A stretch of 18,704 nt of DNA from Candidatus Heimdallarchaeota archaeon (lineage in GTDB: Archaea > Asgardarchaeota > Heimdallarchaeia > Heimdallarchaeales > Heimdallarchaeaceae), in the NCBI GenBank assembly GCA_021399345.1, contig JAAFKI010000038.1:1-18704 (forward strand), written 5' to 3'. The position numbers and the translations under genes were made by a program. The notes under the pieces are model-generated. The model saw only the letters and a program-made list of their open reading frames with translations, searched no databases and was not told the DNA's origin. Positions 12,015 through 15,262 of the stretch are shown here, in pieces (within the stretch, counting starts at the first letter, position 1; every line of letters starts with the position of its first letter).

Positions 12015-13355
12015 ATGACATATACACCCACACATCTAGCTGTACAAGGTATTATTGTATGGTTATTATTATCAAAGAAGAATAAGGCATACTATAAAGA
12101 ACATAGGTGGGAGTTTATACTTATTAATCTTGTAGCAGTTCTCCCCGATATAGATTTACTTATTGGGTATCACAGATCTTACACGCACAGCTTGATTCTT
12201 CCCACTTTCATTCTTTTCAGTATGTTAGTGATAGATAAGATCAATAAAGACGCAAGTCCAATAGAATCAGCAACTCATAAGATTGTAAGGTTTGTTAAAC
12301 TAGCTTCACTGATGTGGATAATTCATATCTTTCTAGACCTAAGCTGGGGACCACTTATGCTATTCTGGCCTCTAGATAATAATCTGTACGATCTTTCAAT
12401 TTATCTTCGATTCAGAAACGAAGCATGGTTGTTCTTTCCATTGACCTTTGTTGGTTTGATTCCAGATTGGTCGATTTATTCCATGACTGAAGGACAAAGG
12501 ATGTTTTTCATAGACCTGTCCCAAGACGAACTTCAATCAATTTATGGAGAATTTCTGGATTTATACATTGCTCAGTTCACATTTCATGTTCTCTTATTCA
12601 TTGTATGGATGTTAGTAATCCTATTTCCAGCATTCAGAAGAAAGAAACGGAAACCAGTAGAAGACCGGAAGAAATTTTATATAAATTTAAAAGCAACGTG
12701 GAGTTTGATAAAGAGACAACTCACACTCTTTGGAATATTTCTAATATTCTTAGGTTTAATGCTGGGACCTATTATTGGATTGAATAGATCTATGGATTAT
12801 GAAATTTCATATGAATACAAGAGTACGCAATCACTCTTCGATCCTACTCTGGGTATAGCTTTTGTGAATAAACCTCAAGCTACTACTTTAGTCAATTTTA
12901 GTAGTGAAACAGGTTTAGTTGATTATAATGTTACAGTCCTTACTACCAATAATGTTACTTTCATTAATTTTTTTGGTAATTTTGAAAATTTGACGAATAA
13001 CTACTATGATAAAAATATCACTTATGAACAGCTGATTGCTTCTTATTCAATCTTAACTAATCAAGCAAAAGATGAAAGTATTTTCGAGTCCAAACTAATT
13101 GGAGATGAAATATCTTCTGGTATTCTTATAACCATGAATGAAACTGAGGAAGAAGAAACAGTTTTCTTAATTACATTTGTAGAAGAATGGAACACAACTG
13201 AATCTTTTATTTATGAAGCTAAAATTGCTATAAATTATGTTATACATAGAAAACAAGCAGTTATAGAAGGAGGAATATTGAGTGGAATTGGGTTAGCTAC
13301 AATTATTACAGACCAAATAATCGCACTAAGAAAGAGTAAGAAAACCAAATCATGA
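12015..13355 (+). CDS. YdjM-like membrane metal-dependent hydrolase fused to an extra extracytoplasmic domain and a C-terminal TM anchor
   Basis: TH near the N-terminus, LPDID, HRSYTHS and HIFLD motifs among several hydrophobic helices; C-terminal TM segment followed by the basic tail RKSKKTKS. Confidence 0.75.
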   Translation: MTYTPTHLAVQGIIVWLLLSKKNKAYYKEHRWEFILINLVAVLPDIDLLIGYHRSYTHSLILPTFILFSMLVIDKINKDASPIESATHKIVRFVKLASLMWIIHIFLDLSWGPLMLFWPLDNNLYDLSIYLRFRNEAWLFFPLTFVGLIPDWSIYSMTEGQRMFFIDLSQDELQSIYGEFLDLYIAQFTFHVLLFIVWMLVILFPAFRRKKRKPVEDRKKFYINLKATWSLIKRQLTLFGIFLIFLGLMLGPIIGLNRSMDYEISYEYKSTQSLFDPTLGIAFVNKPQATTLVNFSSETGLVDYNVTVLTTNNVTFINFFGNFENLTNNYYDKNITYEQLIASYSILTNQAKDESIFESKLIGDEISSGILITMNETEEEETVFLITFVEEWNTTESFIYEAKIAINYVIHRKQAVIEGGILSGIGLATIITDQIIALRKSKKTKS

Positions 13356-14306
13356 AACTAGTTTGGTAGTTAATTCCACTAAATCGGAATTATGATTCAA
13401 TTCAACTATCTTTACATTTGATAGAGAAACGATTTCATCAACAAAGGAAACTCGTCTGTATGTTCTAGCATAAGCTACTCTTAGATCTGGAATACGCTGA
13501 ATAGTTGGAAGTGGATTTCTTCCTGTGGTTCTCTCAAGGTCACTAATGATATAGATGATTTTTTCTCGAGATGAGCTATCTTTTAGCTGCTTTGTAGCCA
13601 ATTGTAAGGCTCCATCTAAATCTGTTTTTCCACCACTTTCAATATTCAAAATCAGTTCCACTAGTTCTTCAGGTGGGATTCTCTTTGCCATAGGCTTTAT
13701 CAGTTGAGCTTCTGAATCGAATTCTATAATAGCAAAATTGTCTCTCTTAACTGAAAGAGACAAAACAGAAGCCATCAAAACAATTTGATGGATCAATCGC
13801 AAAACACTTAGACTTTTATCAATACAGATAACAATACTTTTCTTTCTTTTTGAAGGTTCTTTGACCACTATACTATCATAATCAGGAACTTGCTTTCCAC
13901 TACTCAACATTTTTTCGAAAGTCATTTCGATTTCCCAAGAATCACCTGGTTCATAATTTACATATCTAGAAACAGATGATGAAATCCCCCGTCTGAAGAT
14001 AGTTTTAGCTTTTTCTGTTATGAATGGTATAAGTTTTTCTAGAAGTTTCTTGCGAATATTATAGTTAAGATGTTTTTTTGTTCTAGAATACAGTTGAATC
14101 AAATCTTCTCCAGTAAGATTATCTAACATTTGATCAGTTAATTCAATTTTATTAAGTATTTTAGCTGCTATCATGGGATAATTGGTCGCAATAAGTCTTA
14201 AACCCTCCAAATTACTTTCCTTTGCTGCTCTTTCAGCTAATTCAATAATACGTGCCATATTATCTTCTTTTTTACCAAGTTCAAGATGAATCTCGTTAAT
14301 GGTCAT
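13350..14306 (-). CDS. vWA (MIDAS) domain protein, CoxE-like MoxR partner; the frame is open back to 14396 and may be entered by -1 frameshift from the MoxR gene
   Basis: MIDAS DKSLS (DxSxS), GGKTD and ISD motifs; immediately downstream of the MoxR ATPase. Confidence 0.85.
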   Translation of the reverse strand: MTINEIHLELGKKEDNMARIIELAERAAKESNLEGLRLIATNYPMIAAKILNKIELTDQMLDNLTGEDLIQLYSRTKKHLNYNIRKKLLEKLIPFITEKAKTIFRRGISSSVSRYVNYEPGDSWEIEMTFEKMLSSGKQVPDYDSIVVKEPSKRKKSIVICIDKSLSVLRLIHQIVLMASVLSLSVKRDNFAIIEFDSEAQLIKPMAKRIPPEELVELILNIESGGKTDLDGALQLATKQLKDSSSREKIIYIISDLERTTGRNPLPTIQRIPDLRVAYARTYRRVSFVDEIVSLSNVKIVELNHNSDLVELTTKLVS

Positions 14307-14330
14307 TCGGCCAGCATTTGATGGGAAAGT

Positions 14331-14387
14331 AAGAAACGGTTCATCCCCTACAATAGATGATGTAAGGTCACCTAGTCTTCTTTTTTT
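14331..14387 (-). promoter_or_regulatory. Putative -1 frameshift signal: A_AAA_AAA slippery heptamer (14387-14381), 8-nt spacer and kink-turn hairpin (core 14372-14338)
   Basis: mRNA reads CG AAAAAAA GAAGACUA GGU GA CCUUACA UCAUCUAU UGUAGGG GAU GA ACC. The -1 frame is continuous with the vWA ORF. Confidence 0.6.
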
Positions 14388-15262
14388 CGTGTAATCCTAT
14401 TGTCGTCATATTTAGACAAGACTTTAGAGATGATTTCTTCTATAATTTTTACTTCACTTTTTCTACTGGAAGTTTTGCTTCTAATCTTCCGAGAATGAAC
14501 GGATATTGCTCTCTCAATAAGTTCAATCTCATCTATTCTTTCATTTGCTCTAAAGAGATATACTAATTGTATTGCTCCACGAACAGTTGAGCCATATTCT
14601 AGCTCAGGATGATTAAGTGAAGCTTCAACAATTTCACATGAAATTCGAATTAGAAAGTTGTCTGTGCTACTTGTTCGAAGTTTCACAATTTCGATCATTT
14701 CTTCCAAAGGTTGATGAGTAACATTGATCCAAATACAACGATCATAGAATGCTTTTGGTAAGGGATTTGTAGCTACTGTGTCTTGTGGATTATATGTGAA
14801 AACAGGTATGAAACCTTTCCGTGCTTTAATTTCTCCTAGCTGAGGTATAGTAATCAACCTCTCATCCAGAGCTGTTAGTGCAGCATTAATTGTTTCAGAA
14901 GGAGCTCGATTAACTTCATTATAGAAAAATAATCCTCCTTCTTCCATTGCCTCAGTTAAAGGTCCTGAAATGAATGTATCTCTAGAAAAACCCTTTTCTA
15001 GAACAAGAGGAGGGTCATACCAACCTTTCAGTTTAATAGATGTTAAACTATCATCACCATCTACTCTAATGAAAGGTCTTTCAAGACTCTCTGCTAAAGC
15101 TTTGGCCATCTCTGTTTTTCCAGTTCCAACTGGACCTTCAATAATAATTGGTAAATCCTTTTCAATAGCTCTAACCATCATTTCTAGCTCTTTCTTTCGT
15201 CCAATGATGAGTTTTGACATTTTATCTAGAACTTCTTTTGAAACCTGACTTCCTTTAGACAT
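14372..15262 (-). CDS. MoxR-family AAA+ ATPase (CoxD/AAA_5-like)
   Basis: Walker A EGPVGTGKT, GPLTEAM, Walker B-like FFYNEVNRA, ALDER, TYNP, and LPKAFYDRC arginine finger. ATG at 15262. Confidence 0.9.
   Translation of the reverse strand: MSKGSQVSKEVLDKMSKLIIGRKKELEMMVRAIEKDLPIIIEGPVGTGKTEMAKALAESLERPFIRVDGDDSLTSIKLKGWYDPPLVLEKGFSRDTFISGPLTEAMEEGGLFFYNEVNRAPSETINAALTALDERLITIPQLGEIKARKGFIPVFTYNPQDTVATNPLPKAFYDRCIWINVTHQPLEEMIEIVKLRTSSTDNFLIRISCEIVEASLNHPELEYGSTVRGAIQLVYLFRANERIDEIELIERAISVHSRKIRSKTSSRKSEVKIIEEIISKVLSKYDDNRITRKKED

What the first reader, a model, noticed from the sequence alone, without database searches (positions are those of the whole stretch)
13350..15262. Probable programmed -1 frameshift fusing a MoxR AAA+ ATPase to its vWA partner
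Seen in sequence: the MoxR ORF ends ACA CGA AAA AAA GAA GAC TAG, containing an in-frame X_XXY_YYZ heptamer A_AAA_AAA (14387-14381) two codons before the stop. The vWA frame is the -1 frame. It opens just three codons before the A-run (TAG at 14399-14397) and runs with no stop and no ATG/GTG/TTG through RRLGDLTSSIVGDEPFLTFPSNAGR into the annotated MTINE start, which has no obvious SD sequence. A hairpin begins 8 nt after the heptamer, within the usual 5-9 nt stimulator spacing. Established knowledge: MoxR ATPases work as hexamers with a vWA adaptor, and some chlD-type chelatase genes make both AAA-only and AAA-vWA subunits by frameshifting. Inference: this locus makes an abundant ~296-aa ATPase plus a minority ~637-aa ATPase-vWA fusion, setting the stoichiometry of a mixed ring. 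I know of no description of this for an archaeal MoxR/CoxD-CoxE pair, but I cannot search to confirm. Transcriptional slippage on the A7 run would give the same product.
Basis: partly seen in the sequence, partly recalled or inferred. Interest (0 to 1): 0.88.

Follow-up and report, generated by a model that had tools for sequence, protein, structure and literature searches.

The report
Conserved frameshift joining ATPase to vWA
In this Heimdall-group Asgard archaeon, an AAA+ ATPase gene and the vWA gene behind it are best read as one recoded gene: some ribosomes slip back one base at a conserved A_AAA_AAA site in front of a conserved RNA hairpin, so the cell makes both the free ATPase and an ATPase-vWA fusion.

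Summary
The AAA_5 (MoxR-type) ORF ends ACA CGA AAA AAA GAA GAC TAG. The vWA frame is -1, opens at 14396, and has no start codon before the ATG at 14306.

Comparative data support recoding:
- About 50 orthologous loci from Heimdall/Hod-group MAGs, in at least six deep lineages, all put vWA in the -1 frame. The overlap is short and contains an in-phase slippery run (A_AAA_AAA, A_AAA_AAC or A_AAA_AAT).
- A stem-loop starts 6-8 nt after the run.
- The linker is conserved as protein.
- Several orthologs have no ATG/GTG/TTG in the first 70 codons of the vWA frame.
- At least three relatives are natural in-frame fusions.

In this window's lineage the stimulator has an invariant GA/GAUGA asymmetric loop between a short GGU/ACC stem and a freely covarying stem. 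That sequence fits a kink-turn. A sister family uses a plain GC hairpin built from rare codons.

The proteins are NorQ/NorD-like, not a chelatase; no CobN was found. The closest precedent is frameshifted chlD. No paper describing this case was found, but this scan has noted it on orthologous DNA in other genomes.

Reads could not be checked, and ribosomal versus transcriptional slippage remains untested.

The parts
14372..15262 (-). Zero-frame ORF: AAA_5 MoxR-type (NorQ/CbbQ-like) ATPase, 296 aa from ATG 15262 (TTG at 15265 is also possible); stop TAG 14374-14372
   Evidence: Pfam AAA_5 72.8 bits against a cut-off of 22. Best single-domain PDB match is NorQ, 56.7 bits.
14381..14387 (-). Slippery heptamer A_AAA_AAA in X_XXY_YYZ phase
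   Evidence: Invariant in all 25 family-f1 junctions. Replaced by A_AAA_AAC, A_AAA_AAT or longer A runs in other lineages, always in the -1 configuration.
14397..14399 (-). Stop codon (TAG) that closes the -1 frame three codons before the heptamer, limiting productive shifting to the A run
14373..14380 (-). 8-nt spacer between heptamer and stimulator; contains the last two zero-frame sense codons and the first two bases of the zero-frame stop TAG (its last base, 14372, starts the stem)
14338..14372 (-). Stimulatory stem-loop with a kink-turn-type core. Basal stem GGU (14372-14370) pairs with ACC (14340-14338). GA (14369-14368) faces GA (14342-14341). 3-nt bulge GAU (14345-14343). Distal stem CCUUACA (14367-14361) pairs with UGUAGGG (14352-14346). 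8-nt loop (14360-14353).
   Evidence: RNAalifold consensus. 94.4% of cells paired against 26-60% when partners are slid; 6 pairs with double changes. A covariance model built from f1 finds the same element at the junction of untrained lineages L105 (28.3 bits) and L103 (21.5 bits). Folds.
14307..14381 (-). Linker read only after the -1 shift (RRLGDLTSSIVGDEPFLTFPSNAGR); predicted disordered
   Evidence: Conserved as protein, with codon-position entropy 0.81/0.65/1.07. pLDDT below 50 for residues 1-25 of the model.
13350..14306 (-). vWA body: about 110-aa helical domain plus a vWA/MIDAS domain (DKSLS...GGKT); stop at 13352-13350. ATG 14306 is the gene-caller start.
   Evidence: Pfam VWA_2 45.3 bits. 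AlphaFold model pLDDT 81.8. Top Foldseek matches are the NorD VWA of NorQD complexes and the MDN1 MIDAS domain.

Best explanation
The locus 13350-15262 (minus strand) is one recoded gene.

Most ribosomes translate the 296-aa AAA_5 ATPase and stop at TAG 14374-14372. A fraction pause with the P and A sites on AAA AAA (14386-14381). At that point the mRNA entry channel meets the stem-loop that begins 8 nt downstream. Both tRNA-Lys re-pair one base back on A_AAA_AAA, and translation continues in the -1 frame.

The result is a 637-aa chain: ATPase, a roughly 25-aa disordered tether, a helical domain and a vWA/MIDAS domain.

By analogy with NorQ6-NorD1 and frameshifted chlD, the free ATPase and the fusion would co-assemble into a hexameric ring carrying few (ideally one) tethered vWA adaptors. 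The slip frequency would then set that ratio.

Shown here: the anatomy, its conservation, the coding linker, the absence of starts in several orthologs, the covarying stimulator and the fused relatives. Inferred: that the slip is ribosomal, its efficiency, the mixed ring and the client.
For: 1. Frame and overlap. vWA is in the -1 frame in 27 f1 and f5 loci, 20 f5 loci and 4 further deep lineages. The overlap is usually only 13-31 nt.

2. Slippery site. It is in phase everywhere. A_AAA_AAA is invariant in f1. [quoted passage not shown]

3. Structure at 6-8 nt.
- f1 consensus: 94.4% of cells paired, 6 pairs with double changes, 0/500 shuffles reaching the covariation score. These include synonymous compensatory changes, GAC->GAU with GGG->GGA.
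- f5 has GCGGGA-N-UCCCGC in 17 of 20 loci. In those loci it is always built from CGG (6.5% of Arg codons) and CCC (15% of Pro codons).
- L103 and L105 keep GGNGA...GAUGAUCC around completely different stems.

4. Coding linker without a conserved start.
- Codon periodicity is present.
- The ATG-14306 position is TTA/TTG in L009-L011.
- L026, L027, L084, L087, L098 and L101 have no ATG/GTG/TTG in 70 codons.

5. In-frame fusions. L028/P0003 reads ...PPKKRF.., matching the shifted reading RKK|R. P0007 and P0011 are 39% and 50% identical to the ATPase.

6. Control. The paralogous pair in the same genome has a strong SD and its own start.

7. Precedent. chlD A_AAA_AAA gave 10% shifting in E. coli (PMC3711429). 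One NorD vWA finger sits in the pore of a NorQ hexamer (PMC13036017).
Against:
- In this genus an ATG is kept at 14306 in about 20 of 25 species, so some independent initiation cannot be excluded.
- The single-sequence fold energy is not exceptional (z = -1.28).
- A run of seven A could also support RNA-polymerase slippage, and some orthologs carry A10-A13 without a hairpin.
- The orthologs are related, so the counts overstate independence.
- The hairpin arms also encode conserved residues (GD...DEP), so part of the invariance could be at protein level.
Confidence: 0.78

Rival explanations
1. Transcriptional slippage. The archaeal RNA polymerase adds one A on the A7 template run, so a subset of mRNAs encodes the fusion in frame. 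The protein products would be the same as in the ribosomal model.
For: The site is a homopolymer. Orthologs L098-L101 and L106 carry A10-A13, three of them without the usual hairpin. In chlD cassettes efficiency rose with A-run length.
Against: - Seven A is short for known programmed slippage (A runs longer than 7, T runs longer than 8).
- The codon phase of the run is kept in lineages with different heptamers, including A6C and A6T.
- Two unrelated, selected RNA structures sit at the classical 6-8 nt ribosomal spacing. Polymerase slippage does not need them.
Confidence: 0.12
2. Two ordinary genes. The vWA protein starts independently at ATG 14306 (318 aa), and the upstream open frame and A run are incidental.
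For: Gene callers annotate it this way (P0002, 318 aa). The ATG is present in most species of this genus. Separate MoxR and vWA genes are the norm, as in the paralog.
Against: - There is no SD before 14306, while the paralog has one.
- The 25 codons upstream are conserved as protein.
- The Met is replaced by Leu codons, or no start exists at all, in many orthologs.
- The -1 arrangement is universal.
- Fused relatives exist.
Confidence: 0.06
3. Assembly or sequencing indel in a homopolymer (the true sequence is A8 or A6, a plain fused gene), or a recent pseudogene.
For: Homopolymers are error-prone. The window comes from a 199-contig MAG. Reads could not be inspected.
Against: The same frame relation recurs in about 50 independent assemblies from different studies, with different heptamers and intact ORFs on both sides. 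The one fused f2 lineage differs by more than one base around the run.
Confidence: 0.02

Closest known systems
Frameshifted chlD (fs-chlD) of Mg/Co chelatases (Antonov et al. 2013, PMC3711429; Kuznetsov et al. 2022, PMC9227772)
   Same: One locus gives an AAA+-only subunit and, after a -1 shift on an A-rich heptamer (including A_AAA_AAA) with a downstream structure, an AAA+-linker-vWA subunit. In-frame fused homologs exist. It is annotated as two adjacent genes. It also occurs in archaea (Methanocaldococcus).
   Different: - The AAA+ clade differs: AAA_5 NorQ/CbbQ-like here, with no PF01078 match and TIGR02031 at 21.8 bits against a cut-off of 499.55.
- No CobN/ChlH was found in the genome.
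- The lineage is Asgard.
- The stimulator has a kink-turn-type core.
NorQ/NorD (and CbbQ/CbbO) MoxR-vWA remodelling pairs (PMC13036017)
   Same: These are the best sequence match for the ATPase (NorQ, 56.7 bits) and the best fold match for the vWA protein (NorD VWA, 9qhe_G). A hexameric AAA ring works with one vWA adaptor whose finger enters the pore.
   Different: In those systems the two proteins are separate genes with their own starts. The adaptor is much larger, and the clients (cNOR, Rubisco) are known. Here the two are joined by recoding and the client is unknown.
Sulfolobus solfataricus alpha-L-fucosidase -1 frameshift (from my own knowledge)
   Same: A cellular archaeal -1 frameshift on an A-rich heptamer (A_AAA_AAT). 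The same heptamer occurs in ortholog L097.
   Different: It occurs in a single species and restores one enzyme from two ORFs. It has no two-product stoichiometry logic and no conserved kink-turn-type stimulator.
Kink-turn Kt-7 / box C/D k-turns bound by L7Ae; SECIS-SBP2 recoding elements (from my own knowledge)
   Same: The core reads GGGGAUGAACC / GGUGACC here, against GGCGAAGAACC / GGGGAGCC in Kt-7 as I recall it. It has tandem G.A/A.G, a 3-nt bulge and a Watson-Crick C-stem. SECIS shows that a k-turn-like RNA bound by an L7Ae-family protein can drive recoding.
   Different: No natural k-turn frameshift stimulator was found in the literature searched. L7Ae binding here is untested. A sister family uses a plain GC hairpin instead.
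Midasin/Rea1
   Same: AAA_5 modules plus one C-terminal MIDAS/vWA domain on a tether that docks on the ring. It appears among both the sequence and the fold matches.
   Different: The high total score (142 bits) is the sum of three modules at 34-41 bits each. That is weaker per module than NorQ, so no specific affinity is shown.

Membership tests
Programmed -1 ribosomal frameshift site | X_XXY_YYZ heptamer in zero-frame phase | tested here: met
   A_AAA_AAA at 14387-14381. The phase is kept in 25 f1 and 18 of 20 f5 loci.
Programmed -1 ribosomal frameshift site | Stimulatory RNA structure 5-9 nt downstream, under selection | tested here: met
   8-nt spacer. 94.4% of cells paired, 6 pairs with double changes. 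The structure is found in untrained lineages. The f5 hairpin is built from rare codons.
Programmed -1 ribosomal frameshift site | The -1 ORF lacks its own conserved start, and the trans-frame region is coding | tested here: met
Programmed -1 ribosomal frameshift site | In-frame fused homologs | tested here: met
   L028/P0003, P0007, P0011.
Programmed -1 ribosomal frameshift site | Trans-frame protein observed, dependent on the heptamer and the structure | not testable with these tools
No proteomics is available.
fs-chlD / chelatase medium subunit | ChlI-type AAA+ module (Mg_chelatase, TIGR02031) | tested here: not met
   No PF01078 match. TIGR02031 scores 21.8 bits against a cut-off of 499.55.
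fs-chlD / chelatase medium subunit | CobN/ChlH large subunit in the genome | tested here: not met
   PF02514 was not found in the own genome (88.6% complete). The controls matched.
MoxR AAA_5 + vWA pair (NorQ/NorD-like) | AAA_5 ATPase above the curated cut-off, with a vWA partner carrying a MIDAS DxSxS motif | tested here: met
   AAA_5 72.8 against 22; VWA_2 45.3 against 27. DKSLS is read. NorQ and NorD are the top matches.
MoxR AAA_5 + vWA pair (NorQ/NorD-like) | Known client (cNOR, Rubisco) encoded nearby | not tested
   The neighbours are an MFS transporter, an HDAC and a convergent YdjM-like membrane protein. No cNOR or Rubisco search was run.
CoxD/CoxE | VWA_CoxE family membership | tested here: not met
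   23.7 bits, below the 26.4 cut-off.
Kink-turn (L7Ae-binding) | C-helix, 3-nt bulge, tandem G.A/A.G, NC-helix in the right strand order | tested here: met
   By sequence only. G28, A29, G55 and A56 plus the bulge bases A53 and U54 are invariant. The C-stem covaries freely, also in L103 and L105.
Kink-turn (L7Ae-binding) | Kinked 3D fold and L7Ae binding | not testable with these tools
   Rfam gave only chance-level C/D-box hits (E 3.9 and 6.3).
Programmed transcriptional slippage site | Long homopolymer (A runs longer than 7 in known cases) | tested here: not met
   The window and all f1 loci have A7. It is met only in L098-L101 and L106, with A10-A13.

The most novel reading that the evidence does not exclude
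The frameshift stimulator is a genuine kink-turn occupied by the ribosomal and sRNP protein L7Ae. The slip is then protein-assisted, with an RNP roadblock at the mRNA entry channel, and L7Ae availability tunes how many vWA-tethered subunits enter each AAA+ ring. This would be the first natural k-turn/L7Ae-dependent frameshift signal. It would sit in the archaeal lineage closest to eukaryotes and parallel SECIS-SBP2 recoding.
Probability: 0.3. Interest if true: 0.88.

Novelty: new variant of a known kind. Interest (0 to 1): 0.78.

Why it matters
Conserved cellular -1 frameshifts are rare in archaea, and I found none described for Asgard archaea. This one is old enough to span several Heimdall/Hod-group lineages. 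It has been rebuilt with different heptamers and stimulators, and in places replaced by long A runs or by in-frame fusion. That makes it a natural series for studying how recoding signals evolve.

It also extends the chlD logic, in which one gene yields both a ring subunit and an adaptor-tethered subunit, to the NorQ/CbbQ branch of MoxR ATPases. That branch works as a hexamer with one vWA adaptor. The slip frequency therefore gives a testable way of setting a roughly 5:1 stoichiometry.

In practical terms, current annotations split the gene and truncate the vWA protein. If the kink-turn reading holds, it gives a ready-made natural protein-responsive frameshift switch.

Tried and rejected
- Rfam scan of the junction: only chance-level C/D-box hits.
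- Single-sequence folding of the window's stimulator: z = -1.28, not informative alone. One fold (the L082 reference) used wrong coordinates and should be ignored. L016's MFE prefers another fold.
- 'Proto-midasin' idea: the 1.8e-40 Midasin hit is a sum over three AAA modules at 34-41 bits each, weaker per module than NorQ. I dropped it as a specific affinity.
- Chelatase membership: rejected.
- Tree to decide whether fusion or frameshift is ancestral: the ortholog clade is solid (100/100), but its base is an unresolved polytomy with long branches. No direction can be given.
- Gene neighbourhood as a clue to the client: the YdjM-like neighbour is conserved only in f1 and is convergent. No client is inferred.
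- Complex prediction was not used. AAA-vWA binding is a textbook pair and would pass by likeness.
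Full report
**Observation**

On the minus strand the AAA+ ORF (14372-15265; ATG at 15262) ends ACA CGA AAA AAA GAA GAC TAG. This places A_AAA_AAA (14387-14381) in X_XXY_YYZ phase, two codons before the stop.

The -1 frame is closed by TAG 14399-14397. It then runs open through DYTKKRRLGDLTSSIVGDEPFLTFPSNAGR into MTINE. The first ATG/GTG/TTG is the ATG at 14306.

Pfam assigns AAA_5 (72.8 bits) to the first protein and VWA_2 (45.3 bits) to the second. VWA_CoxE stays below its cut-off.

An A7 run is not rare in this 33% GC window: 13 matches, fewer than in shuffles. The single-sequence fold is also unremarkable. The case therefore rests on comparison with other genomes.

**Host and context**

The neighbours are an intein-containing MCM, GINS, Hel308, NurA/HerA and CDP-archaeol synthase, which marks an archaeon. 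Related contigs are titled Candidatus Heimdallarchaeota. The genome is a 3.27-Mb MAG, 88.6% complete.

**Conservation of the arrangement**

A search of 61 relatives, and then of 400 genomes of the phylum, found orthologs (E < 1e-78) in three places:
- the window's family f1 (genera g1, g2, g3, g5);
- the single genome of family f2;
- 21 of 22 genomes of family f5.

All other Asgard hits belong to a paralogous MoxR/vWA pair. A tree separates the two groups with 100/100 support.

In 26 f1 loci and 20 f5 loci the vWA frame is always -1 relative to the ATPase. The overlap is usually 13-31 nt and contains the A run. Four further deep lineages, reached through representative proteins, show the same arrangement (L103-L106).

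The f2 genome carries an in-frame fusion of 643 codons. Its junction reads ...NRLFPPKKRF..., matching the shifted reading ...RKK|R.... Two more fused relatives exist. P0007 comes from a Hodarchaeales MAG, and P0011 from an IMG metagenome; they are 39% and 50% identical to the ATPase.

**The vWA gene cannot generally start on its own**

The ATG at the 14306 position is TTA or TTG in L009-L011. L026, L027, L084, L087, L098 and L101 have no ATG, GTG or TTG in the first 70 codons of the frame.

The 25 linker codons show coding periodicity, with entropy 0.81/0.65/1.07 by codon position. In the AlphaFold model they form a disordered tether with pLDDT below 50.

As a control, the paralogous pair in the same genome has GGGAGGAG four bases before its own TTG start. 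Nothing SD-like precedes 14306.

**Slippery sites and stimulators**

In f1 the heptamer A_AAA_AAA is invariant. Eight bases downstream, RNAalifold predicts GGU/ACC enclosing a 6-7-bp stem. Of all cells, 94.4% pair, against 26-60% when partners are slid. Six pairs show double changes, and no shuffle out of 500 reaches the covariation score. The changes include synonymous compensatory pairs, such as GAC->GAU with GGG->GGA.

Between the two stems lies an invariant asymmetric loop: GA on the 5' strand and GAUGA on the 3' strand. In strand order this reads as a C-helix, a 3-nt bulge, tandem G.A/A.G and an NC-helix, which is the kink-turn pattern. As I recall it, the core is close to that of Kt-7.

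I then tested it on new data:
- L103 and L105 keep GGNGA...GAUGAUCC around completely different distal stems (CUCCUCUUC/GAAGAGGAG and CUUUAUAG/CUAUAAAG). Their folds are significant, with z = -3.9 and -2.8.
- A covariance model trained only on f1 finds both at the right place, at 28.3 and 21.5 bits. It finds nothing in the fused gene, the paralog or the hairpin-bearing f5 loci.
- The peptide motif GD...D(D/E)P appears only where this RNA motif is present. It is absent from the fused relatives and from lineages with another stimulator. That argues the RNA drives the conservation.

[quoted passage not shown] In the 17 of 20 f5 loci that carry it, the hairpin is always built from CGG and CCC. These make up only 6.5% of Arg codons and 15% of Pro codons in the same genes.

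A few loci (L098-L101, L106) carry A10-A13, mostly without a hairpin. They may rely on polymerase slippage.

**What the proteins are**

The ATPase's best single-domain PDB match is NorQ (56.7 bits). Midasin scores higher only because three of its modules add up.

The vWA model (pLDDT 81.8) matches the NorD VWA of NorQD complexes best, then the MDN1 MIDAS domain.

No CobN was found, and the chelatase models fail. The locus is therefore not chlD. In NorQD one vWA finger enters the pore of a NorQ hexamer.

**Mechanism**

The best-supported reading is a programmed -1 ribosomal frameshift. It yields a free 296-aa ATPase and a 637-aa ATPase-tether-vWA chain. The two would co-assemble, and the slip frequency would set how many adaptors a ring carries.

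The ribosomal nature of the slip, its efficiency and the mixed ring are inferences. Transcriptional slippage is the main rival. Independent initiation and assembly error are unlikely.

**Novelty**

The same logic is known for frameshifted chlD, where A_AAA_AAA gave 10% shifting in E. coli (PMC3711429; PMC9227772).

I found no paper on frameshifting in MoxR/vWA pairs or in Asgard cellular genes, and none on a natural kink-turn frameshift stimulator.

This scan has already reported the same feature on orthologous DNA of other genomes. My results agree with those reports.

Noticed in passing
window 12015-13355 (+): A 446-aa YdjM/DUF457-like membrane protein lies convergent to the vWA gene, and their 3' ends overlap by 6 nt. 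It is conserved in this position in every f1 locus whose flank reached it, down to 40% identity. It was not seen next to the f5 or f2 orthologs within the flanks held.
   Followed up: partly
L105 (Hodarchaeales contig, 572-3966): A frameshift-type AAA/vWA pair (A_AAA_AAA plus a k-turn-type hairpin) is followed about 160 nt later by the in-frame fused paralog P0007. Both solutions therefore sit in tandem on one contig.
   Followed up: partly
L098, L099, L100, L101 (f5) and L106: The slippery run is lengthened to A10-A13. In three of these loci the GC hairpin is lost or half-deleted. This may be a switch to transcriptional slippage, or homopolymer assembly noise.
   Followed up: no
window 15263-15300 (-): An A/T-rich TTTTAATT box lies about 30 nt upstream of ATG 15262, and no SD is present. 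This looks like an archaeal TATA box driving a leaderless mRNA for the recoded gene. It is read by eye only.
   Followed up: no
window 9259-11847 (-): The MCM helicase gene carries an intein (Intein_splicing domain at residues 467-596) inside its P-loop domain.
   Followed up: no
G000:C199:6877-8837 (L102 578-2538): A paralogous AAA_5/vWA pair occurs in the same genome and is widespread in Asgard genomes. It has a 14-nt gap, a strong SD (GGGAGGAG) and a TTG start. It served here as the non-recoded control.
   Followed up: yes
window 14372-15262 (-): The ATPase aligns to three separate AAA modules of eukaryotic Midasin/Rea1 at 34-41 bits each, and the vWA model matches the MDN1/Rea1 MIDAS domains. 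This is generic AAA_5/MIDAS kinship, and no specific affinity is shown.
   Followed up: partly
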